From positions 1 through 64,000 of IMG/VR virus record IMGVR_UViG_3300037851_000360: a stretch of DNA of 64,000 nt; one strand, written 5' to 3'. Positions 67 through 63,691 of the stretch are shown in pieces. Within the stretch, counting starts at the first letter, position 1. Each line of letters opens with the position of its first letter. The translations under genes and the position numbers were made by a program. The notes beneath the pieces were generated by a model. The model did not search any database. It was not told the DNA's origin and saw nothing but the letters and a program-made list of their open reading frames with translations. Source of the DNA: a virus. Taxonomy: Duplodnaviria > Caudoviricetes.

Positions 67-510
67 TTATTTCAATGCAAGTCGTTCGGCGCGCAATTGA
101 CCGGCACGAATCTTACCCGCACGTCTGGAGACGAGAAGATAAAGAATAATGCTGTATTTGGAGGGATACTCAGCATACCACTTTGGATATCCATACCTCT
201 CAACGAGTTCGGTGGAAAGACGCTTCATGACTTCCTTGACCTTCTCGGGATTGTCGGGAGGAAGTTTGGCGAGTCGATTCTCAGCAGCAAGTTTCTTGTC
301 TTCTCGGTGTTTCGGATCGTTGATGAACCACGAGAGATTACCCCGCTTGTAAGAGTTGAGAATGGTATGATAATCCTCCTTCCACTGCTTGACCCAATTG
401 AGATACTCTTCTCGGGTGTTAAATGTGAGGTGCTTGATCACTTCCAAAACGGCAGCGTTAAATTCACCCACGAATGGTCTGGTATAGTTTCTGTTATATA
501 GGTTTTTCAT
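67..510 (-). CDS. Hypothetical protein (147 aa)
   Basis: ORF track gives 67..603; start re-called to the ATG at 510, which has AAGGA upstream and avoids overlap with the previous gene; TAA stop. Confidence 0.7.
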   Translation of the reverse strand: MKNLYNRNYTRPFVGEFNAAVLEVIKHLTFNTREEYLNWVKQWKEDYHTILNSYKRGNLSWFINDPKHREDKKLAAENRLAKLPPDNPEKVKEVMKRLSTELVERYGYPKWYAEYPSKYSIILYLLVSRRAGKIRAGQLRAERLALK

Positions 511-514
511 AGTG

Positions 515-985
515 TTAGTTTCCTTCATACTTTGCTTTAAGTTCGGCAAGGAGTTTCTTCTCCTGTGCAATCTTTTCTTCCGACGCCTTCTTGGCAGATT
601 CATCTTTCTGTCTCTGTTTTTCCGCTATCAACTTGAGAGCGGCTACGGTTTCTTCTTGAACCTGTTTGTCAATAGCGTGGGCGACTCGATTGGTGATTTC
701 ATCAACCTTTTCGTGATCCCACTCGCCACAGACGTTGTAGTTGCTGACTTCCTGACTATTCGAGTCGTATCGAATCTCGAACGCGAATGTTTCGCCGCAG
801 TCGTGAAACAGGATGGTGATGTCGTATCCAGATTCACGATCTTCGCGAGGTTTCCGAAGAAGTTCAACGACCTTCTTGATGAGAAATTCCTCGTCAATGT
901 TGGTTAGAAGAATATGGTCGCTGCTAAAGAGACCATAGTCGTAGTTGCCACTATCCGGCTTGTATGCAATCAGTGTGTATTTCAT
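515..985 (-). CDS. Hypothetical protein (156 aa) with C-terminal coiled coil
   Basis: ORF starts 1 nt after the Pth2 stop; tight operon packing. Confidence 0.7.
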   Translation of the reverse strand: MKYTLIAYKPDSGNYDYGLFSSDHILLTNIDEEFLIKKVVELLRKPREDRESGYDITILFHDCGETFAFEIRYDSNSQEVSNYNVCGEWDHEKVDEITNRVAHAIDKQVQEETVAALKLIAEKQRQKDESAKKASEEKIAQEKKLLAELKAKYEGN

Positions 986-986
986 G

Positions 987-1394
987 TTATTCTTTTAGTT
1001 GAAAACGTTTCAGGAACGGTGCCTCGCTTTTCGCGATGGGACCAATACCGACAGCGGTAGCCGTAGTCACGCCATTGAAACAGGTGTTATTGCCTGAATC
1101 TTCAATGAACGTACACGGCAAGCCCAAAGACTGAGCCTGATTGAACGCTTTGATTAGTGCTTCCAGATTCGAACACTCAAGACAAATCTTGGTGCCGATA
1201 CCGCCATCTGAGTGATATTCACTCTGTCTTTCCGGAGACGCTTTAAGAAACGCTCCAAGATAAGCATGACCAGCCTGCGAAGCCGTTTTGCCCGCACTCA
1301 TTCCTAAGTCGCTTCGTACGAGTGCGTAGATACGAAGTGTCTTATCAGGGATTACTCCCGGTTTTTCACTAGCCTATGTATGTTGTGTTTTCAT
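987..1394 (-). CDS. pth2: Peptidyl-tRNA hydrolase type 2 with in-frame amber codon (TAG at 1376-1374, codon 7)
   Basis: Pth2 motifs LRIYALVRSDLGMSAGKTASQAGHA, KICL, IEDSG and TAVGIGP. The conserved first beta-strand lies upstream of the ORF-track ATG (1301). The only canonical start upstream of that strand is the ATG at 1394: ATG AAA ACA CAA CAT ACA TAG GCT... Confidence 0.85.
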
Positions 1395-1404
1395 AGAGAG
1401 AAAA

Positions 1405-1480
1405 TGGCGCTCCCGGAGGGATTCGAACCCCCAACGCGAGATTTTAGAGGTCTCCGTTCTGGCCGTTGAACTACGGGAGC
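1405..1480 (-). tRNA. Amber suppressor tRNA, anticodon CUA (76 nt, encoded CCA)
   Basis: GCTCCCG TA GTTC AACGGCCA GAAC G GAGAC CT-CTA-AA ATCTC GCGTT GGGGG TTCGAAT CCCTC CGGGAGC G CCA: canonical cloverleaf, U33, A37, short variable loop, C31-A39 mismatch. Confidence 0.93.
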
Positions 1481-1496
1481 GTGTCTGACGGTATAA

Positions 1497-1525
1497 AGGT
1501 CTACACCTTTTCCGTATTTTGTCAA
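1497..1525 (-). promoter_or_regulatory. Candidate sigma70-like promoter for the tRNA
   Basis: TTGACA followed 16-17 nt later by TAGACC(T), about 17 nt upstream of the tRNA 5' end; the -10 match is weak. Confidence 0.4.
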
Positions 1526-1528
1526 GCC

Positions 1529-1924
1529 CTAATCGCCAGAAAATCCACTTGGCTTGCTGTAATATGCTGACATTTCCTTGGCATGGCTATCTGCCCACTG
1601 TTGAGCCTCAGCGCCTTTTGCAAGGGTTTTGAACTGTCCACCAAATTTGTAGCCGTATGGATCGCCCGGCTTGGTGTTTCTTTCCACAAACTTACGAACC
1701 ATTTCTTTCAATTCGGCTTCGTCTTTGGCGTAGAAGAGATGCTTGTCTCCAATGAAAACTGGCCCCTTATCGATTGGGCGCTTTACTTGAATGTCGGTGA
1801 TGTAAAATGGAATCTTTCCTTCACCCGGCACACCAAACAATTCATCATGCTCACGCTTGAAATCAGCCGTCATTTTTTCGACAATGATTTCACGAATGAT
1901 CTGTTTGAGTTCCGACTTTTTCAT
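1529..1924 (-). CDS. Hypothetical protein with capsid-targeting-like leader; ends in TAG
   Basis: 131-aa ORF; N-terminus MKKSELKQIIRE; amber stop at 1531-1529. Confidence 0.75.
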   Translation of the reverse strand: MKKSELKQIIREIIVEKMTADFKREHDELFGVPGEGKIPFYITDIQVKRPIDKGPVFIGDKHLFYAKDEAELKEMVRKFVERNTKPGDPYGYKFGGQFKTLAKGAEAQQWADSHAKEMSAYYSKPSGFSGD

Positions 1925-2895: not shown

Positions 2896-2900
2896 AATAC

Positions 2901-2909
2901 CATAAATAT
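2901..2909 (-). promoter_or_regulatory. Putative late promoter motif ATATTTATG
   Basis: Recurrent motif, 5 nt from ATG. Confidence 0.6.
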
Positions 2910-2965
2910 AAGAAACTCCCAACAAATGAGCGAGAAAACGATTCTGTCAATTAAAAATAGTCGCC

Positions 2966-4936
2966 TTACTTGATTGGGCAGACGCCGGAAGCACATTCTG
3001 AAAGATCGACGCCTTCTTTGACGTATTCAACCTTGTTGCTTGTGGTGTTGATCAATCCTTTAAGAGACTTGATTTCCTTGTGATATTCTTCTGCGGTAAT
3101 CGGAATGTAAGGGGCTTGCTTAAATCCATGCTCTTGGTGAAGAAGGAAACTGATAGACTTTACACCGTCTCTGTAGTTTTGCTTCATCCACTCCTTGATT
3201 TCTGGCAACTCCTCTTCCTTGTAATACACCGTGACCGAGACCGAATTATCCGACCAAATGGTTTGGAGTTTCTTTACCAATTCCATCTGCTTGATTGCGG
3301 TCATGTCTTTGGCGAGAATAGCGTCATCCGGGCTTACGCATGGGAAGTAAACAACAACCGTTCCTCTATCCTCCGAACCATCAATGTTCAATGCGTATTC
3401 GATACGATTTCCATTTTCACGGCAGAGTTTCACCAATGCGTCTGAACTGCTCATACGAACGGTTCTGAAATAATGAGAAGCGTATGCAGGGTGAACTCCC
3501 GGAGTTGCGCCAGCAAGAAGGCTCAAAGTGCCACTTGGCTTGACCGTGGTCAATTTGATGCTCTCGGGCCAACCGCGAATCTTGCTCCACTTCCTATCGA
3601 ACTCGCGAAGTGCCTTGTATGTATCATCAAGCCATTCGACTTTATTCAATGACTGGCAGATTCCCGTCACACCCTGACCGATTCTCATGTTCTTGTGAAC
3701 AATCTTGTTGGTCTCTTCGTGAATGAATGGAAGGGCGAGGATTGCCTTCTGCGTCTTGTATAGAAGAATGGAACAACGCTCCAATTCTTCCTTCGAATCG
3801 ATGTTGTTCAAATACAACTCGGCAAGGTCGCAGCACTCATATGGAGCGAGCGTGATTTCCGCACATGGATTTGTGCCTTCACATACATCCTTGCGATTTT
3901 CACCAAGACGACCCTGTTTTCTGCTCAACGGAAGATTGAAGAAACCATATGGCTCTCCCTTTGCCTTGCGTGTGCCCTTGTCATCGACGTATGTCGTGAA
4001 GTTATCCCACAATTCGTTGCTGATGTGATCAAAGTCATCGGCATAAATCGTGTTGTTGCTGGCACCTCTCCAATAAGGAACGTTTCCAAGACTCCACTTC
4101 TTTGCACGAAGGTAATGATAATCATCCGGATCGCCCAACGCAATTTCAGCAGAGCGACGAACGTTTCCAGCCACAACAATGCATCCAATAATGTTGCAAA
4201 TGTCAAGAACGTCGATTGAACGAAGTTTCTTACCTTCACGTGCGGCTATAACATCACCAATTTGCTGAATGCCCTGTACAAGAATGCCGGGACCGGAAGC
4301 CTTGCCACCAAAGCCGCGAATCAATTCACCCGAACCACGAACGAGAATCGTGCTATAGGAGAAGCCCTTACCCGTTACAAAATACGCATCGAGAACATTG
4401 TTCAAGAGTTTGGTCCAACCCTCTCGACTGTCAGGAACGATGAAGTCGGCATCTTTCTCTGCATTGGCAATAATCTTGACGCCCTCTTTGACCTTTGGAA
4501 GTTCCATAACGTCTTCGCGTCTGATAGAAAAACCTACGCCGCCACCAAGCATCAGATTCTCAAAGATAAAGCAAAAGTCGGATGGCTTTTTGATGGAGAC
4601 ATACCAACAATTGAGAAGAGAGTTTGCACCCCAACGATCAACGGTGGAGGTACCAAGTTGCCAAAGCATTCGGCCGGCAAAATTGCACTTGAGATTAAAG
4701 ACAAGATCGTATAGTTCTTCTGCCTCTTCCTTCGTATATCCGGCTCCGATTTTCTGTGCGCCGTTGATACAACGTGCTACGGTTTCCCACCATTCTTCTG
4801 TGGTTCCATCTTCTTTTGGTCTTGCATAGGTACGCTTATATACTACATACCCCATTCCATTGAAACCCCAATTGGGTTGCTTGCCTTTATACTGCTCAAG
4901 AAATTCTTCTGTGATTACTGCTTCGATATTGCTCAT
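2966..4936 (-). CDS. nrdJ: Class II (adenosylcobalamin-dependent) ribonucleoside-triphosphate reductase, monomeric type
   Basis: NCWY, RRSAEIALGD, GTNPCAEI (thiyl Cys), TTVKPSGTLSLL and C-terminal CASGVCPIK redox pair; start re-called to MSNIE. Confidence 0.93.
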   Translation of the reverse strand: MSNIEAVITEEFLEQYKGKQPNWGFNGMGYVVYKRTYARPKEDGTTEEWWETVARCINGAQKIGAGYTKEEAEELYDLVFNLKCNFAGRMLWQLGTSTVDRWGANSLLNCWYVSIKKPSDFCFIFENLMLGGGVGFSIRREDVMELPKVKEGVKIIANAEKDADFIVPDSREGWTKLLNNVLDAYFVTGKGFSYSTILVRGSGELIRGFGGKASGPGILVQGIQQIGDVIAAREGKKLRSIDVLDICNIIGCIVVAGNVRRSAEIALGDPDDYHYLRAKKWSLGNVPYWRGASNNTIYADDFDHISNELWDNFTTYVDDKGTRKAKGEPYGFFNLPLSRKQGRLGENRKDVCEGTNPCAEITLAPYECCDLAELYLNNIDSKEELERCSILLYKTQKAILALPFIHEETNKIVHKNMRIGQGVTGICQSLNKVEWLDDTYKALREFDRKWSKIRGWPESIKLTTVKPSGTLSLLAGATPGVHPAYASHYFRTVRMSSSDALVKLCRENGNRIEYALNIDGSEDRGTVVVYFPCVSPDDAILAKDMTAIKQMELVKKLQTIWSDNSVSVTVYYKEEELPEIKEWMKQNYRDGVKSISFLLHQEHGFKQAPYIPITAEEYHKEIKSLKGLINTTSNKVEYVKEGVDLSECASGVCPIK

Positions 4937-11194: not shown

Positions 11195-11215
11195 ACGAGA
11201 TGGGTTAGTTCAATC

Positions 11216-11224
11216 TATAAATAT
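11216..11224 (-). promoter_or_regulatory. Putative late promoter motif ATATTTATA
   Basis: Recurrent motif. Confidence 0.6.
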
Positions 11225-11240: not shown

Positions 11241-12632
11241 CTACTCCGGTATGATGAAATTGTTCATGTTTTTGAAATCCGTTCCGGTTTTTATAGAAAT
11301 GGGGAACTCACCTTCCTCCATCATACGACGAATGTCAAAGACCAATTCCGGCCCGTCATCCATACAGAAATCAATTAATATCGAGTCGTATAGATACAAC
11401 ACAATCTTTGATTTCTTATTGTCTAGGTAGTCAAGAACGTTCCGTATGACCATCAGGTTGCGTTCTGTCTCATACGCTTGGAGGAGATAGTTGACGACCT
11501 TGTTTGGGAATGGCTTTTCGCCAAGGTGACATTCTTTAATCTGGCGATTGAAGATCGGCGTTTCCACATACCCGTGTTCACAATAGAACTTCCATCGGCT
11601 ATCGACATACTTCTGAATGGCAGCGAAATACGGAACTTCCAGCAGCAATTCATCGATCTTTCCGTAAAGGTTCTGGAAGGTCAGACTCTTGACTGCCTTC
11701 AACTCATCGGTCGTAACGTCATCCTTACCGAGAATTTCTGTAGCAATCCATCGGTATGTGTCAGCCTTTGCGGCTTTGTTTAGAGGATAGTTGGCAAGTC
11801 GTGCCAAAAGGTGAGGGTGATATGACTTGAAGTCGGAAAGCAGAAGGATTCCATTTGAACCAAAACGGGAGGTGAAATGAAGACGCTCATCGTTTTCTTT
11901 GTTCAATGCCGCCAAATTCACTCCACCGAACGTATTACTAGGTCTGCCCGTCGAACTCCATGGATTGTAATTACACCGGAACAGATTGTCGCTGTTGATG
12001 AATGTTGAGGAGTTGGGGAAAAGAGATAGGAAACTCCGTCGATCAACGTGCATACCACCTTCCTCCATTCGAGAGAGAATAGGAATGATGTGATTGACCA
12101 AACTGGCATAACCCAAATCCTTCAGTTCAACGTCGGTTGGAATCGCTTGCTTCATGATCCACATACCGAACATTTCGATGTGCTTGGTCAATGGAATCAC
12201 GATGTTGATCTTGCTTCCGTTCGGATACATCCTGTGAAAATATTGATGTGCGACCGTCTCGATAGGGTAATCCGGATCGCCACCGCGAATGTAGTTTAAT
12301 GCATCTGCCATTTCAAACTTCACACCCGTTCCACGAAGATACTGCGTCGTTGACTTTCCACAATCAGCAATGAGTTTGACCTTTGTTCGTGGAAGACCCA
12401 TCAACGCCTTGTAGGCGATTGCAGGAGTTGTGTTCACGTTTTCCGTTAAAGAAAACCCGATGACGATGATTTTATCTCGGTTTCCAACGAGAATACCCGC
12501 CACCTTTGTGTCCAGAGGATGACGATTATGGTCTTCGGGAATGATAGTCATCCAGAGAACGCCTCTGGCAATTTCATTCAATGATGACACCATATCCTCG
12601 TCGTCAATCGGAAAGTATGCAGACGGAAACAT
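11241..12632 (-). CDS. polA: Compact, divergent family A DNA polymerase-like protein
   Basis: STGRPSN, motif A SDFKSYHP, motif B KSLTFQNLYG, NYLLQA and motif C LYDS; start re-called to the ATG at 12632; TAG stop. Confidence 0.8.
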   Translation of the reverse strand: MFPSAYFPIDDEDMVSSLNEIARGVLWMTIIPEDHNRHPLDTKVAGILVGNRDKIIVIGFSLTENVNTTPAIAYKALMGLPRTKVKLIADCGKSTTQYLRGTGVKFEMADALNYIRGGDPDYPIETVAHQYFHRMYPNGSKINIVIPLTKHIEMFGMWIMKQAIPTDVELKDLGYASLVNHIIPILSRMEEGGMHVDRRSFLSLFPNSSTFINSDNLFRCNYNPWSSTGRPSNTFGGVNLAALNKENDERLHFTSRFGSNGILLLSDFKSYHPHLLARLANYPLNKAAKADTYRWIATEILGKDDVTTDELKAVKSLTFQNLYGKIDELLLEVPYFAAIQKYVDSRWKFYCEHGYVETPIFNRQIKECHLGEKPFPNKVVNYLLQAYETERNLMVIRNVLDYLDNKKSKIVLYLYDSILIDFCMDDGPELVFDIRRMMEEGEFPISIKTGTDFKNMNNFIIPE

Positions 12633-12638
12633 ACGAGG

Positions 12639-12667
12639 ATTCTTCACCAAAACCACGCGTCCGTCAA
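12639..12667 (-). promoter_or_regulatory. Candidate sigma70-like promoter for polA
   Basis: TTGACG-N17-AAGAAT. Confidence 0.45.
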
Positions 12668-17937: not shown

Positions 17938-17941
17938 GACC

Positions 17942-17950
17942 TATAAATAT
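17942..17950 (-). promoter_or_regulatory. Putative late promoter motif ATATTTATA
   Basis: 4 nt from ATG. Confidence 0.6.
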
Positions 17951-20275: not shown

Positions 20276-20280
20276 ATTCC

Positions 20281-20289
20281 TATAAATAT
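20281..20289 (-). promoter_or_regulatory. Putative late promoter motif ATATTTATA
   Basis: 5 nt from ATG. Confidence 0.6.
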
Positions 20290-22026: not shown

Positions 22027-22042
22027 AACTTGTCTTTCTTAC

Positions 22043-22051
22043 CATAAATAT
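22043..22051 (-). promoter_or_regulatory. Putative late promoter motif ATATTTATG
   Basis: Recurrent motif. Confidence 0.55.
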
Positions 22052-22600: not shown

Positions 22601-23365
22601 TTATTTTCCTTCCGTCACTTTGGAAACATTCTTCACAGCGCCTTTTAGGATATGCTCAATTGCATCGCGCTCTGCCTTGTATTCTGGTCCTTCCAAACGA
22701 AGAAGGATTGTGTGTAATAGTTTGTCTCCGACGCCCTTTTTCTTTCTCTCATAGTCGCGATACAAACGGAGGAATGCGTCTTGTATTTCGGCAGGAGGAA
22801 GAGCGTGAACTACGTCAAAGAATTGGTCGTATTGACCCTTCTGAAAATTTGCAATTGCATTGGTAAGTTCATCGGGCTGACCGCCTTTCAAATAGTGCTG
22901 AAGGTCGGCGAGCGACTTGACGTTGAAGGTTTCGTAAATCTTGGCAACCCGAGCGTCGCCAGATTCCTTCATGTTGTGAATCTTCCACATCGTTGCATAT
23001 GCCTTGTCATCCTGACCGGGATACTGACCTTTGATCTTATTGTAGAGATTCTTCGGAAAGTTTGGAGGGGCGACTTCGGCAAGTGTGTCATCCGTTGGAA
23101 CCGCAATTTTACTCGTGGCATTATCCATAGGAGCAATTGGTTTTCCATCCTTGTCGGTAATACCACCGTCTCTGTCAACCTTCACCACTTCACCCGCTTT
23201 GTTCTTCAACACGATAATGTCATTCTGCTCTCTGGCAATCGCAACGAATCCCTCTTTTACTTTTTGGGCAATCACTTCGTTTTGCTTTTCGTGTACTCCG
23301 TGTGCTTCTTTCATCACTTCGATGATAGATTCGCGGATGAGTTTCTTCAGGTCAAATTTCTTCAT
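22601..23365 (-). CDS. Hypothetical protein with capsid-targeting-like leader
   Basis: MKKFDLKKLIRE; internal TLAE-VAPP...KAYATMWK segment. Confidence 0.75.
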   Translation of the reverse strand: MKKFDLKKLIRESIIEVMKEAHGVHEKQNEVIAQKVKEGFVAIAREQNDIIVLKNKAGEVVKVDRDGGITDKDGKPIAPMDNATSKIAVPTDDTLAEVAPPNFPKNLYNKIKGQYPGQDDKAYATMWKIHNMKESGDARVAKIYETFNVKSLADLQHYLKGGQPDELTNAIANFQKGQYDQFFDVVHALPPAEIQDAFLRLYRDYERKKKGVGDKLLHTILLRLEGPEYKAERDAIEHILKGAVKNVSKVTEGK

Positions 23366-23384
23366 ATGTGGAAAGGGTGATTTC

Positions 23385-23393
23385 TATAAATAT
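23385..23393 (-). promoter_or_regulatory. Putative late promoter motif ATATTTATA
   Basis: Recurrent motif just downstream of a terminator. Confidence 0.6.
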
Positions 23394-26166: not shown

Positions 26167-26204
26167 AATAAATAACGGATAACCGGCGGTTTTTGATATT
26201 TATA
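26167..26204. promoter_or_regulatory. Divergent pair of putative late promoter motifs
   Basis: TTATTTATT on minus (26175-26167) and ATATTTATA on plus (26196-26204) at the strand switch. Confidence 0.55.
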
Positions 26205-26208
26205 GTCG

Positions 26209-27421: not shown

Positions 27422-27430
27422 ATATTTATA
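27422..27430 (+). promoter_or_regulatory. Putative late promoter motif ATATTTATA
   Basis: Recurrent motif. Confidence 0.6.
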
Positions 27431-27460
27431 GAACAACACCTGTCAACGGAATAACTCACT

Positions 27461-36251: not shown

Positions 36252-37907
36252 ATGGGGTTGGATATCAAATGGTCTTCAGCAAGACGAGTAATGACGAGCA
36301 ATGGCCCGTCATATGTTCGTAGTTGGGTCATACCCGTTCAACTCCTAACGGGCTTCTTTCAGTTCTGGAATGAGAACAAACTTGGTTTGAAACTTGACGG
36401 ATACTCCGTCAGCAAAAACCAAGAGGATAAGTGGCAATTCAATGAATGGAGAAAGCGCCTAACCGACTTCAAGGATTTGGGCTCGTCTCAGCCCGCCAAG
36501 GTAATCACCATTCCAGAAAAAAGTTCGCTCGTTCTTGAGCCATTGCGTTTCCCACAAGGTCTCAGGGAATGGCAACCACCGGTCGTTCAGCAATTGGTGG
36601 CATCGATTAAGAAGTGTGGAGCAGCAATCGACGGCTCGGATACCGGAACCGGAAAGACATACACGGCAGTTGCCGTGGGTCGTGAGATGGATTTGGAAAT
36701 CGCAGTTGTTTGCCCAAAAGCCGTTATCACGGCATGGAAGAGGGTAATTCGCAACCACTTCAAGATGACTCCAATTTTCGTCATCAACTATGAAGCATTG
36801 AAGGGTGGAAAGCAGAAGCACATTGCCACATGGGAAAAGGTAAGTAAGAAGTGTAAACGGGAAACCTTCGTATGGAAGATGCCCAACCCGAAACAAACAC
36901 TCATCATTTTCGACGAGAGCCATCGATTAAAGTCGGGAACAACAATCAACTCCGAAATGGCTCTGGCGGCACACAAGCAGGGATACAACATCCTTTGTTG
37001 TTCAGCAACAAACGCCATCAATCCAATTGAACTAAAAACGGTTGGAAAGATTCTTGGTCTTCACTCTGGCTCTTCCAAGGGCTTTGCTCAGTTTCTTCAA
37101 GAGCATGATTGTGCAAAGGGAAGATTTGGTTGGGAGTTTGGTGGAGACCAAATGGTGTTGAAGAAACTCCACTTCGACATTTTCAAGGAACGTGGTGCTC
37201 GCCTAAAGAAAGAGGAGATTCCCGGATTCCCCGAATGCGATCTTGTCGCAGAAGCCTATGACATGGATGAGCAATCCAAGGCGGATATCAATCAGATTCA
37301 CTTCGACATGAAGCGAGAACTGGATAAGATCAACAAGACCATCAAGAACGAATCTGAGAAGATGGCAAATGCTCTCACCGCACAACTTCGCGCACGACAG
37401 AAGACCGAACTCATTAAGGTTCCGCTCTTTGTTGAAATGGTAGAGGAGGCAATTGAAGATGGAATGTCGGTCGTAATCATCGTAAACTTCACCGAAACGA
37501 TCAAAGCCCTTCAAGAGAGATTAAGTAAATTCGGCGACATTCCTATCATATGGGGTCTCGATCCAAAAAATCGCCAAGCCAACATCGACAAGTTCAATGC
37601 AGACGAGGCTCGGATTATCCTTGTCAACATCAAGGCGGGTGGTGTAGGATTGAGTTTACATGACCTCAACGGAAAATATCCTCGGTTTGCCATCATTTCA
37701 CCCGGACCATCAGCCGTCGAACTTCGACAGGCAACCGGTCGTGTTTGGAGAGCAGGAGCGTTGACCAAGGCTATGCAGAGAATCGTCTTCGTCGCCGGTA
37801 CGGTTGAAGAGGGAATCTGCGAGCAACTAAAAACGAAACTTGATCACCTCGATCAAATTAATGACGGCGACTTATCAACCAACGAATTTTCTATCATACA
37901 GGAATGA
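36252..37907 (+). CDS. SF2 (SNF2-like) helicase
   Basis: DTGTGKT, IIFDESH, CSAT, GGVGLSL, QATGRVWRAG. Confidence 0.88.
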   Translation: MGLDIKWSSARRVMTSNGPSYVRSWVIPVQLLTGFFQFWNENKLGLKLDGYSVSKNQEDKWQFNEWRKRLTDFKDLGSSQPAKVITIPEKSSLVLEPLRFPQGLREWQPPVVQQLVASIKKCGAAIDGSDTGTGKTYTAVAVGREMDLEIAVVCPKAVITAWKRVIRNHFKMTPIFVINYEALKGGKQKHIATWEKVSKKCKRETFVWKMPNPKQTLIIFDESHRLKSGTTINSEMALAAHKQGYNILCCSATNAINPIELKTVGKILGLHSGSSKGFAQFLQEHDCAKGRFGWEFGGDQMVLKKLHFDIFKERGARLKKEEIPGFPECDLVAEAYDMDEQSKADINQIHFDMKRELDKINKTIKNESEKMANALTAQLRARQKTELIKVPLFVEMVEEAIEDGMSVVIIVNFTETIKALQERLSKFGDIPIIWGLDPKNRQANIDKFNADEARIILVNIKAGGVGLSLHDLNGKYPRFAIISPGPSAVELRQATGRVWRAGALTKAMQRIVFVAGTVEEGICEQLKTKLDHLDQINDGDLSTNEFSIIQE

Positions 37908-38254
37908 AGCCAGATACTTATCCAAAGGAAACAATGAAATACACCGCCGAATCAGTGAATTGGAGGCTGGTAATCGACATTGATGAAAACGTGTTCGATG
38001 CTGACACTGCATTTATGGAAGCCGCTACACGCGGAGCAGAGCAAGCATTTCGAGAATACAAGAACAATTTCCTCTGTGGGCCTTACATCGAAGTGTCTTG
38101 TAAGAATGCCCAAGGCGAACTTATCACCAAATACGTCAACGCATTCTTCGTTCTCCTGAATGCCGCCCTCTATAAAAAGGCTGAGGAACTTCGAACGAAC
38201 TTTCAGACTCGTTCTGAAGAAAAGATAGATTTGGCGAAACAGCCATATTTATAG
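37904..38254 (+). CDS. Hypothetical protein; ends in TAG
   Basis: 116-aa ORF; ATGA overlap upstream. Confidence 0.7.
   Translation: MKPDTYPKETMKYTAESVNWRLVIDIDENVFDADTAFMEAATRGAEQAFREYKNNFLCGPYIEVSCKNAQGELITKYVNAFFVLLNAALYKKAEELRTNFQTRSEEKIDLAKQPYL
38245..38253 (+). promoter_or_regulatory. Putative late promoter motif overlapping the upstream stop codon
   Basis: ATATTTATA(G). Confidence 0.55.
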
Positions 38255-42723: not shown

Positions 42724-42727
42724 ATCC

Positions 42728-42736
42728 TATAAATAT
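42728..42736 (-). promoter_or_regulatory. Putative late promoter motif ATATTTATA
   Basis: 4 nt from ATG. Confidence 0.6.
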
Positions 42737-45474: not shown

Positions 45475-45490
45475 GGTTCGGTTGCCTAAC

Positions 45491-45499
45491 CATAAATAT
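45491..45499 (-). promoter_or_regulatory. Putative late promoter motif ATATTTATG
   Basis: Recurrent motif; divergent partner CTATTTATA at 45525-45533. Confidence 0.55.
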
Positions 45500-48954: not shown

Positions 48955-48963
48955 ATATTTATA
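48955..48963 (+). promoter_or_regulatory. Putative late promoter motif ATATTTATA
   Basis: 4 nt from the ATG of the giant gene. Confidence 0.6.
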
Positions 48964-48967
48964 GAAG

Positions 48968-57544: not shown

Positions 57545-57553
57545 ATATTTATA
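57545..57553 (+). promoter_or_regulatory. Putative late promoter motif ATATTTATA
   Basis: Upstream of portal. Confidence 0.6.
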
Positions 57554-57576
57554 GACATACACCTTAAAGGCTATTT

Positions 57577-63676: not shown

Positions 63677-63685
63677 ATATTTATA
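63677..63685 (+). promoter_or_regulatory. Putative late promoter motif ATATTTATA
   Basis: 6 nt from ATG. Confidence 0.6.
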
Positions 63686-63691
63686 GACACC

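What the first reader, a model, noticed from the sequence alone, without database searches (positions are those of the whole stretch)
987..1480. Amber-suppressor tRNA gating a Pth2 gene that carries an in-frame TAG
Seen: a canonical 76-nt tRNA with anticodon CUA (1480-1405) ends 10 nt before an ATG (1394) reading M-K-T-Q-H-T-[TAG]-A-S-E-K-P-G-V-I-P-D-K-T-L-R-I-Y-A-L-V-R-S-D-L-G-M-S-A-G-K. No ATG/GTG/TTG/CTG lies between the TAG and the LRIYALVR.DL strand. Established: that strand followed by M-S-x-G-K-x-A-x-Q-x-x-H is the conserved N-terminus of Pth2, so the ORF-track product (start 1301) lacks a core strand. Pth recycles tRNAs from dropped-off peptidyl-tRNAs. Inference: full-length Pth2 needs the adjacent suppressor, so the cassette is self-gated. 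Pth2 would be made only when the suppressor is charged, or when release factor 1 activity is low, and could in turn recycle peptidyl-tRNA, including short MKTQHT-tRNA drop-off products. An amber-gated translation-rescue module in a phage that is not globally recoded is the best candidate for an undescribed system here.
Basis: partly seen in the sequence, partly recalled or inferred. Interest (0 to 1): 0.9.

Follow-up and report, generated by a model that had tools for sequence, protein, structure and literature searches.

The report
Suppressor-tRNA-gated phage Pth2 gene
A phage that otherwise uses the normal genetic code puts a UAG stop at codon 7 of its peptidyl-tRNA hydrolase gene and encodes a UAG-reading tRNA 10 bases upstream; about 100 related loci keep this pairing, so the enzyme is probably made only when that tRNA overrides the stop.

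Summary
A 76-nt tRNA(CUA) lies at 1405-1480 (-). Ten nt downstream, ATG 1394 opens the leader MKTQHT, then TAG (1374-1376), then an in-frame Pth2 domain with no start codon. The gene-callers' start (ATG 1301) would drop core strand beta1.

The phage is not recoded. It is 96% coding under code 11, and pth2 is the only gene in 88 kb that needs TAG read-through. An independent soil metagenome contig keeps the TAG.

The layout is conserved: 108 of 113 related loci (27 of 32 clusters at 70% identity) have an early in-frame stop, and most have a same-strand suppressor tRNA nearby. Stop and anticodon covary:
- TAG with CUA in many loci, including cultured phage Phosso
- two TAA with UUA in L018
- TGA with UCA in Phosso's relative Atu_ph07

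Upstream of beta1, TAG is enriched five-fold in frame, while TAA and TGA are depleted.

Suppressor-dependent translation of Pth2 is therefore well supported (about 0.78), but nothing is experimental. Why the enzyme is gated is unknown. I found no paper describing this. The scan has already found the same module on many other genomes.

The parts
1405..1480 (-). Amber suppressor tRNA gene, anticodon CUA, elongator type, CCA encoded
   Evidence: ARAGORN. Rfam tRNA model 56.7 bits. Homologous suppressor tRNAs in 67 unique versions keep the loop CU-CUA-AA while their stems change in a compensating way.
1395..1404 (-). 10-nt pyrimidine-rich spacer (TTTTCTCTCT) between the tRNA 3' end and the leader ATG; no Shine-Dalgarno sequence
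   Evidence: Sequence. The same layout, CCA plus a 7-10 nt YTTTC spacer plus ATG, is found in relatives L036, L038, L008, L043 and L044. Genes of this phage generally lack a Shine-Dalgarno sequence.
1377..1394 (-). Leader, six sense codons (MKTQHT), starting at the proposed true start codon ATG 1394-1392
   Evidence: Sequence. In-frame ATG leaders of 2-10 codons precede the stop in most relatives.
1374..1376 (-). In-frame TAG, codon 7 of the pth2 ORF, in the context ACA TAG GCT
   Evidence: Sequence. An independent soil-metagenome contig covering 1240-1390 keeps it. The context is conserved: the -1 codon is ACR in 58 of 87 unique contexts and +4 is a purine in 85 of 87.
987..1373 (-). Linker plus complete Pth2 domain (128 codons plus TAA stop at 987-989)
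   Evidence: Pfam PF01981 E=7e-19. AlphaFold2 model with pLDDT 91.8. Foldseek match to M. jannaschii Pth2 2zv3 with target-normalised TM-score 0.88.
1314..1337 (-). Codons for strand beta1 (LRIYALVR), upstream of the gene-callers' start
   Evidence: DSSP on the model gives a strand at residues 13-20 with pLDDT about 96. It aligns to residues 2-8 of 2zv3.
1299..1301 (-). Internal ATG that gene callers take as the start (conserved Met of DLGM-x-x-GK); a product from here lacks beta1
   Evidence: ORF list. Most database homologues are called from this same Met as 103-104 aa proteins.

Best explanation
This is a two-part translational gate. The gene at 1405-1480 (-) makes an elongator tRNA that reads UAG. 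Ten bases downstream, probably on the same transcript, translation of pth2 starts at AUG 1394 and meets UAG at codon 7. If host release factor 1 wins, only the hexapeptide MKTQHT is made. If the phage tRNA(CUA) wins, an amino acid of unknown identity is inserted in a non-conserved linker, and the ribosome goes on to make the 135-residue full-length Pth2 peptidyl-tRNA hydrolase. Pth2 output therefore follows the cell's UAG-suppression capacity, meaning functional charged suppressor against RF1.

Shown:
- the anatomy of the locus
- the Pth2 fold, and that beta1 lies upstream of the only canonical internal start
- that the genome uses the standard code
- that the layout is conserved, and that stop identity covaries with the anticodon

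Inferred:
- that the tRNA is expressed, charged and decodes this UAG
- that the two genes share a transcript

Most likely purpose (speculative, about 40% among the purposes I considered): Pth2 dosage is tied to suppressor activity, because read-through and short-ORF drop-off raise the peptidyl-tRNA load. A delay or threshold switch is the next candidate. Many relatives carry two stops, which would make the response steeper.
For: 1. Anatomy. There is no ATG, GTG, TTG or CTG between the TAG and beta1. ATG 1301 corresponds to Met13 of the solved M. jannaschii enzyme.
2. Not recoded. The window and the 88-kb record are 96% coding under code 11. TAG ends a few ordinary genes. pth2 is the only gene that needs TAG read-through. 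Three other short 'leaders' lie in terminator or promoter sequence.
3. The TAG is real. The source run shows 0 differences. An independent soil run has a contig over 1240-1390 with only one change, which is synonymous.
4. Conservation. 108 of 113 analysable loci, or 27 of 32 clusters at 70% identity, have an early in-frame stop and no ATG before beta1. 18 of those 27 clusters have a same-strand suppressor tRNA that matches the stop within 3 kb. None of the 5 normal-start clusters has one. A hand calculation of Fisher's exact test on 18/27 vs 0/5 gives p about 0.01. One search gave p=0.006 for a count of 19/27 that I later corrected to 18. The median tRNA-to-stop distance is 48 nt.
5. Covariation. 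TAG goes with CUA in dozens of loci. L018 has two in-frame TAA and a tRNA(UUA) just upstream. Atu_ph07 has TGA at codon 7, and its only suppressor tRNA is UCA (PMC6102473). Its relative Phosso has TAG at codon 4 and two CUA tRNAs; no UCA or UUA was found among the 55 distinct tRNAs fetched, out of 59 Rfam matches.
6. Frame signature. In the 90 nt upstream of beta1, TAG occurs 101 times in frame against 21 and 19 out of frame. TAA (14 against 38 and 47) and TGA (21 against 90 and 108) are depleted in frame.
7. Context. +4 is a purine in 85 of 87 unique contexts, against 48 of 85 at the same genes' terminal stops. By my recollection of E. coli work, a 3' purine favours nonsense suppression. Only 5 of 85 first stops downstream of the leader stop are TAG, and some of these may be internal read-through TAGs as in L121 rather than true terminators.
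8. The closest relative, L036 (78% identical), keeps the tRNA and the TAG but has a different leader, MNTNTTPV.
Against: There is no experimental evidence of any kind and no RNA data. Whether the tRNA is charged, and with what, is unknown.

An in-frame ATC at 1352-1350 lies upstream of beta1 and could in principle initiate. Some relatives have a GTG between the stop and beta1, or directly after the stop (L036, L051, L152, L153), so the gate may be leaky or bypassed there.

The tRNA and its target appear to be co-transcribed, so the gate adds no obvious transcriptional information and its benefit is unexplained.

XacN1 carries CUA suppressors but has a pth2 with a normal start, so suppressors are not tied to this target exclusively.

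Two lineages (L014; L016/L112/L113) have a TAG leader that is out of frame with pth2. The simple model does not explain these.
Confidence: 0.78

Rival explanations
1. The short ORF is only a regulatory upstream ORF. Pth2 is made independently of the tRNA, by non-canonical initiation or re-initiation downstream of the TAG. In this window that would be at ATC 1352-1350, which follows a GGGAG. The tRNA sits nearby only because translation genes cluster.
For: An in-frame ATC upstream of beta1 exists. The codon after the stop is often GTT, GTA or ATT, and occasionally GTG. pth2 often lies inside tRNA arrays.
Against: This does not explain the covariation of stop identity with anticodon. It does not explain the five-fold in-frame TAG enrichment with TAA and TGA depleted. 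It does not explain tandem in-frame TAGs, or the TAG inside the domain in L121. GTT and GTA are not known start codons, and here the next codon is GCT. The GGGAG-to-ATC spacing is 2 nt, and the phage does not use Shine-Dalgarno sequences.
Confidence: 0.08
2. This is neutral, incipient recoding. After the phage acquired a suppressor tRNA, a nonsense mutation in a dispensable stretch of pth2 became harmless and drifted to fixation. It has no regulatory role and is a first step towards a TAG-recoded genome.
For: Borges et al. (10.1101/2021.08.26.457843) propose that suppressor acquisition precedes the accumulation of in-frame stops. The TAGs sit in non-conserved segments. TAG is a rare terminator here.
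Against: The same gene, the same N-terminal position and the same ACR-TAG-GTW context recur in 27 diverged clusters. Many have two stops, and the same pattern is seen with all three stop types. No other gene in this 88-kb genome has acquired a TAG. Drift would scatter stops over many genes.
Confidence: 0.08
3. The 104-aa product from ATG 1301 is the real, functional protein, and the upstream frame is untranslated.
For: Gene callers choose this start here and in most homologues.
Against: The upstream 24 codons are conserved as protein (LR[IL]YA[LI]VR-DLG), match the Pfam profile from position 3, and form beta1 of the fold with pLDDT about 96. Solved Pth2 enzymes start at this strand.
Confidence: 0.03
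4. The gene is a pseudogene, or the TAG is an assembly error.
For: A single in-frame stop is the usual mark of a pseudogene.
Against: An independent run keeps the TAG. The domain is intact and conserved. The stop is conserved in about 100 loci.
Confidence: 0.01

Closest known systems
Stop-codon-recoded phages with their own suppressor tRNAs (TAG read as Gln or TGA as Trp; crAss-like, Lak and others; Borges et al. preprint 10.1101/2021.08.26.457843; PMC7886860)
   Same: A phage-encoded suppressor tRNA makes an in-frame stop readable. In-frame stops have been proposed to control when certain proteins are made.
   Different: In those phages dozens of mostly late or lysis genes are recoded, and coding density collapses under code 11. 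Here the genome is 96% coding in the standard code, TAG still ends genes, and exactly one small translation-factor gene carries the stop, at its extreme N-terminus and next to the tRNA.
Orphan suppressor tRNAs of cultured jumbo phages (Atu_ph07, PMC6102473; XacN1, PMC5852040)
   Same: These are standard-code phages that carry CUA or UCA suppressor tRNAs.
   Different: The authors reported no target. Here Atu_ph07's annotated 'hypothetical protein' (record positions 198552-198884) turns out to be a Pth2 whose codon 7 is the TGA that its single tRNA(UCA) would read. XacN1's pth2 has a normal start.
prfB (release factor 2) autoregulation through an early in-frame UGA (from memory)
   Same: An early in-frame stop in a translation-factor gene makes the yield depend on competition at that stop.
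   Different: prfB needs a +1 frameshift, and its own product acts at the stop. Here read-through is in frame, a dedicated tRNA does the decoding, and no feedback from Pth2 onto the stop is evident.
Lambda bar minigenes and host Pth (from memory)
   Same: These are very short ORFs, 2-7 codons followed by a stop, linked functionally to peptidyl-tRNA hydrolase. Such ORFs are known sources of peptidyl-tRNA drop-off.
   Different: The bar minigenes are free-standing and toxic to Pth-deficient hosts. Here the minigene is fused in frame to a pth2 gene.
Archaeal and eukaryotic Pth2 (PF01981; 2zv3, 3erj, 1xty, 1q7s)
   Same: The fold matches (target-normalised TM-score 0.81-0.88) and the signature motifs GK-x-A-x-Q-x-x-HA and D-x-G are present.
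   Different: The gene is phage-borne. It has a short N-terminal linker and needs stop-codon read-through to be made.

Membership tests
Pth2 peptidyl-tRNA hydrolase (PF01981) | Profile match above the curated cut-off over the whole domain | tested here: met
   68.5 bits against a cut-off of 23; residues 15-117 match profile positions 3-104 of 115.
Pth2 peptidyl-tRNA hydrolase (PF01981) | Pth2 alpha/beta fold | tested here: met
   The AlphaFold2 model has pLDDT 91.8. The Foldseek top hits are all Pth2 structures, with target-normalised TM-score 0.88 to 2zv3.
Pth2 peptidyl-tRNA hydrolase (PF01981) | Conserved active-site Lys (in the GK motif) and Asp (in D-x-G); the catalytic roles are from memory of the Sulfolobus enzyme work | tested here: met
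   K29, D92 and G94 are nearly invariant, and S32, Q33, G35 and H36 invariant, across 32 homologues. They align to the DLGMGKGK and RDAG segments of 2zv3.
Pth2 peptidyl-tRNA hydrolase (PF01981) | Hydrolysis of peptidyl-tRNA | not testable with these tools
   This needs an enzyme assay or complementation of a pth(ts) strain.
Functional nonsense-suppressor (elongator) tRNA | Cloverleaf with a 7-nt anticodon loop, U33, a stop-complementary anticodon and a purine at position 37 | tested here: met
   ARAGORN and Rfam at 56.7 bits. The loop is C-U-CUA-A-A. Stems covary across 67 unique homologues.
Functional nonsense-suppressor (elongator) tRNA | Not an initiator tRNA (no 1-72 mismatch, no three consecutive G-C pairs in the anticodon stem; criteria from memory) | tested here: met
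   There is a G1-C72 pair, and the anticodon stem reads GAGAC/AUCUC.
Functional nonsense-suppressor (elongator) tRNA | Expressed, aminoacylated, and decodes UAG | not testable with these tools
   No RNA run was listed. Amino-acid identity could not be inferred from similarity.
Genome-wide stop-codon-recoded phage (code 15 type) | Many genes carry in-frame TAG; coding density is low under code 11 | tested here: not met
   Coding density is 96% under code 11, and pth2 is the only gene that needs TAG read-through in 88 kb.
Genome-wide stop-codon-recoded phage (code 15 type) | TAG is no longer used as a terminator | tested here: not met
   Three credible genes end in TAG: 1529-1924, 11241-12656 and 37904-38254.
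prfB-type autoregulatory recoding | A frameshift is required at the in-frame stop, and the gene product acts at that stop | tested here: not met
   The Pth2 domain is in the same frame as the leader. Pth2 acts on released peptidyl-tRNA, not on the ribosomal A site (established knowledge).
   The window has all three features. So do 18 of the 27 stop-interrupted clusters, within 3 kb.

The most novel reading that the evidence does not exclude
The cassette is a self-contained, portable translational sensor and actuator. It measures the cell's capacity to decode one stop codon (charged phage suppressor against the release factor) and sets the level of a peptidyl-tRNA hydrolase accordingly. Double stops give a threshold response. 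In one subclass the tRNA lies in frame inside the very ORF it unlocks, so each transcript becomes either a tRNA or an mRNA. This would explain why many standard-code phages carry 'orphan' suppressor tRNAs. It would also be a natural single-gene use of genetic-code expansion logic.
Probability: 0.3. Interest if true: 0.9.

Novelty: new variant of a known kind. Interest (0 to 1): 0.8.

Why it matters
Authors of cultured jumbo-phage genomes (Atu_ph07, XacN1) reported suppressor tRNAs with no identifiable target. This module supplies a specific, conserved target, and a testable pair of related lab phages: Atu_ph07 (TGA with UCA) and Phosso (TAG with CUA).

It shows that suppressor tRNAs are used in phages outside genome-wide recoding, to control a single translation-quality-control enzyme.

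It also exposes a systematic annotation error. Most database copies of this Pth2 are called 20-30 residues short, from an internal Met.

If confirmed, the conserved ACR-UAG-GUW context and the compact tRNA-plus-leader unit could be useful parts for engineered stop-codon suppression.

Tried and rejected
- **RNA evidence.** No RNA holder was listed for this stretch, so expression could not be examined.
- **Read-through-stimulating RNA structure downstream of the TAG.** The fold of 1290-1404 is unremarkable: -26.4 kcal/mol, z = -1.5.
- **Own promoter for the tRNA.** The sigma-70 scan found none on the minus strand. A TTGACA at 1521-1526 lies 24 nt from the nearest -10-like hexamer.
- **Amino-acid identity of the suppressor.** Similarity to other phage tRNAs scatters over Arg, Trp, Lys and others. 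The blastn hit to an XacN1 tRNA-Trp is not decisive. The one hint is that L120 has CAA (Gln) where relatives have the second TAG.
- **Other TAG-gated genes in the 88-kb genome.** Three short in-frame 'leaders' (upstream of the genes at 22601, 7619 and 5057) sit in terminator hairpins or promoter-like sequence and were dismissed.
- **L014 as a TGA/UCA example.** Withdrawn. Its neighbouring tRNA is CUA-like, and its TAG leader is out of frame with pth2.
- **Homologues that seemed to have normal starts or Gln at the stop position.** In P0047 and P0051 the 'start' is a GTG directly after a TAG. P0010 and P0032 were called with TAG read as Gln.
- **Open reading frame across the tRNA as a general rule.** There is only mild enrichment: 43 of 54 against 26 and 33 for the other two frames, and the loci are not independent.
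- **Literature.** Seven full-text searches and six papers read found no description of a stop-interrupted pth2 paired with a suppressor tRNA.

Full report
**Observation.** ARAGORN finds one tRNA in the window, at 1405-1480 (-), with anticodon CUA. The Rfam tRNA model scores it 56.7 bits against a 29-bit cut-off. It has a G1-C72 pair, a 7-nt loop C-U-CUA-A-A, discriminator G and an encoded CCA. It is therefore an elongator-type amber suppressor, not an initiator. ARAGORN's label 'Pyl' only reflects the anticodon.

After a 10-nt spacer comes ATG 1394, then five codons (MKTQHT in all), then TAG at 1374-1376. The next 24 sense codons contain no in-frame ATG, GTG, TTG or CTG before ATG 1301. Two in-frame ATC codons occur in that stretch, one of them (1352-1350) upstream of beta1.

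**What the gene is.** The 128-residue translation after the TAG matches Pfam PTH2 at 68.5 bits, from residue 15 (profile position 3). It matches solved archaeal Pth2 enzymes by sequence, and residue 2 of M. jannaschii 2zv3 aligns to residue 14. An AlphaFold2 model built with 32 homologues has pLDDT 91.8, with strand beta1 at residues 13-20. Foldseek returns only Pth2 structures at the top, with target-normalised TM-score 0.88 to 2zv3. ATG 1301 corresponds to Met13 of the M. jannaschii enzyme, so a product from that start lacks one of the four core strands.

**The phage is not recoded and the TAG is real.**
- The record is viral. It encodes a terminase, a DnaB-like helicase, a UvsX-like recombinase, an SSB and a ribonucleotide reductase. 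The cassette sits at the end of the minus-strand replication block.
- Under code 11 the window and the 88-kb record are 96% coding. Stop usage is TAA 59, TGA 27 and TAG 5.
- Reading TAG as sense lengthens only pth2 in a meaningful way. Three other short upstream 'leaders' fall in terminator or promoter sequence.
- The probable source run reproduces the stretch without any difference. A contig from an unrelated soil study covers 1240-1390 with the TAG intact and a single synonymous change.

**Conservation.** In a 5.8-billion-protein search, most close homologues are called as 103-104 aa proteins that start at the same internal Met. I fetched DNA for 28 IMG/VR loci, 80 metagenome loci and 4 MAG loci and read upstream in frame.
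- 108 of 113 analysable loci have an in-frame stop a few codons upstream of beta1 with no ATG in between. In most it is preceded by an in-frame ATG leader of 2-10 codons.
- At 70% identity these loci form 32 clusters, of which 27 are stop-interrupted.
- 18 of those 27 clusters have a same-strand suppressor tRNA that matches the stop within 3 kb. None of the 5 clusters with an ordinary ATG start has one. A hand calculation of Fisher's exact test gives p about 0.01. One search reported p=0.006, but on a count of 19 that I later corrected to 18.
- The median distance from tRNA to stop is 48 nt.
- The window's closest relative, L036 (78% identical), keeps the tRNA, a similar tRNA-to-ATG spacer and the TAG, but has a different leader, MNTNTTPV.
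- Many lineages carry two in-frame TAGs, for example MNTNTNS-stop-VPDT-stop.

**Covariation.** Stop identity follows the anticodon.
- TAG goes with CUA in dozens of loci.
- L018 has two in-frame TAA and a tRNA(UUA) directly upstream.
- The cultured jumbo phage Atu_ph07 has MIGEHF-TGA, and ARAGORN on its tRNA loci finds a single suppressor, UCA. This agrees with its genome paper, which named no target (PMC6102473).
- Its relative Phosso has MKY-TAG and two CUA tRNAs. No UCA or UUA was found among the 55 distinct tRNAs fetched, out of 59 Rfam matches.

**Frame and context signatures.** In the 90 nt upstream of beta1 (93 unique regions), TAG is in frame 101 times against 21 and 19 out of frame. 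TAA (14 against 38 and 47) and TGA (21 against 90 and 108) are depleted in frame. That is what a translated frame looks like when TAG is sense and the other two codons are stops.

The local context is also conserved. The -1 codon is ACG or ACA in 58 of 87 unique contexts, and the +1 codon is GTT or GTA in 51 of 87. The +4 base is a purine in 85 of 87, against 48 of 85 at the first stop downstream of the leader stop in the same genes. Only 5 of those 85 downstream stops are TAG, and some may be internal read-through TAGs, as in L121, rather than true terminators. From memory of E. coli work, a 3' purine favours nonsense suppression. The window's context is ACA TAG GCT.

**Mechanism.** The best reading is that full-length Pth2 is made only when the phage tRNA(CUA) outcompetes RF1 at codon 7. 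Otherwise the product is a hexapeptide. The stop lies in a non-conserved linker, so the identity of the inserted residue need not matter.

The local details fit a single transcript.
- The tRNA's CCA is followed by a 7-10 nt YTTTC spacer and then the ATG, in this lineage.
- The phage's genes lack Shine-Dalgarno sequences (24 of 91 have any core).
- A motif ATATTTATRG occurs 16 times against about 4 expected. It lies on the coding strand in intergenic sequence 3-29 nt upstream of gene starts wherever I checked, and often only 3-5 nt before the ATG. This suggests a host that translates leaderless or short-leader mRNAs.

Why the enzyme is gated is not established. Candidate purposes are matching Pth2 dosage to the peptidyl-tRNA load that suppression and minigene drop-off create, a delay or threshold switch (supported weakly by the double stops), or a check that the tRNA works in the current host.

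**Rivals.**
- Non-canonical initiation or re-initiation after the stop cannot be excluded without experiments. It fails to explain the covariation, the frame signature, the tandem stops and a TAG inside the domain in L121.
- Neutral incipient recoding does not explain why the same gene, position and context recur in 27 clusters while no other gene in this genome has a TAG.
- A functional truncated protein is contradicted by the conservation and structure of beta1.
- Assembly error is contradicted.

**Caveats.**
- XacN1 has CUA suppressors but a normal-start pth2.
- Some relatives have a GTG after the stop.
- L014 and L016/L112/L113 have TAG leaders that are out of frame with pth2.

**Comparison and novelty.** The closest known systems are genome-wide recoded phages with suppressor tRNAs, prfB autoregulation, and the lambda bar minigenes; the last two are from memory. 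This is not a recoded genome, and no frameshift is involved. Seven full-text searches and six papers read turned up no description of the module.

The scan's own records show that it has been reported before on many other genomes. My L018 appears to be the 203-kb phage of note e1-5364104. Those notes agree with my reading, but I relied on my own tests.

I rate this a new variant of a known kind. It is of high interest because it gives orphan phage suppressor tRNAs a concrete, testable target in cultured phages.

Noticed in passing
window 2900-2909, 11215-11224, 17941-17950, 20280-20289, 22042-22051, 23384-23393, 26196-26205, 27422-27431, 38245-38254, 42727-42736, 45490-45499, 48955-48964, 57545-57554, 63677-63686: The motif ATATTTATRG occurs 16 times against about 4 expected. 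It lies on the coding strand in intergenic sequence 3-29 nt upstream of gene starts wherever checked, and often only 3-5 nt before the ATG. One copy has TTGACT 16 nt upstream. It looks like a phage promoter -10 element that gives leaderless or near-leaderless mRNAs. Genes also lack Shine-Dalgarno sequences.
   Followed up: partly
window 1391-1531 (-): The upstream 131-aa gene (1529-1924) ends in TAG followed by G. Read-through would add 45 codons across the tRNA gene. It would then stop at TGA 1393-1391, which overlaps the pth2 leader ATG (ATGA), a classic coupling arrangement. This may be chance.
   Followed up: no
L120 1471-2010; L154 196-720; also L046, L050, L009, L076, L047, L104, L042: In a subclass of relatives the layout is a TTGACA-17-TATACT promoter, an ATG leader, a TAG, then the tRNA(CUA) gene lying in frame INSIDE the ORF, then usually a second TAG, then Pth2. 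Excision of the tRNA and translation of the mRNA would be mutually exclusive on one transcript.
   Followed up: partly
L016 ~2890-2960, L112, L113 ~200-260; L014 ~2960-3000: Two lineages have a typical ATG-x-x-TAG-GTT leader in a different frame from the Pth2 domain. This suggests a frameshift requirement, decay or indel errors.
   Followed up: no
L013 4380-4459, L020 3402-3480, L027 3352-3429, L120 2344-2421: tRNA-like genes that ARAGORN calls with four-base 'anticodons' (gcaa, gtaa, taaa), i.e. enlarged anticodon loops, sit next to several cassettes.
   Followed up: no
L121 ~1501-1911: One relative also has a TAG inside the Pth2 domain (…APT-stop-VQEEY…), again in the ACA TAG GTT context.
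   Followed up: no
L152 2583-3512: A 239-aa protein with an alanyl-tRNA-synthetase core hit (PF01411) lies just upstream of tRNA-Val and tRNA(CUA), ahead of the gated pth2. It could bear on how the suppressor is charged.
   Followed up: no
window 67-603 (-): A 178-aa protein of no known family lies two genes downstream of pth2. It is conserved downstream of pth2 in relatives of this lineage (L036, L037, L038, L041, L043, L045, L107).
   Followed up: partly
L116 (CAWJTA010000001.1, 1.83-Mb contig), L117, L118: The cassette also occurs in Verrucomicrobia MAG contigs, one of them 1.8 Mb long. It is either on a prophage or is a cellular copy.
   Followed up: no
G000:C1:76043-76224 (outside the window): A tRNA-Glu(UUC) is directly preceded by a 107-nt tRNA-like gene with an apparent intron. 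ARAGORN in intron mode calls it Asn(AUU).
   Followed up: no
L002 1570-1902 (MF403008.1 198552-198884): The Atu_ph07 Pth2 homologue is annotated as 'hypothetical protein' from the internal Met. Most metagenome gene calls for this family are truncated in the same way.
   Followed up: yes
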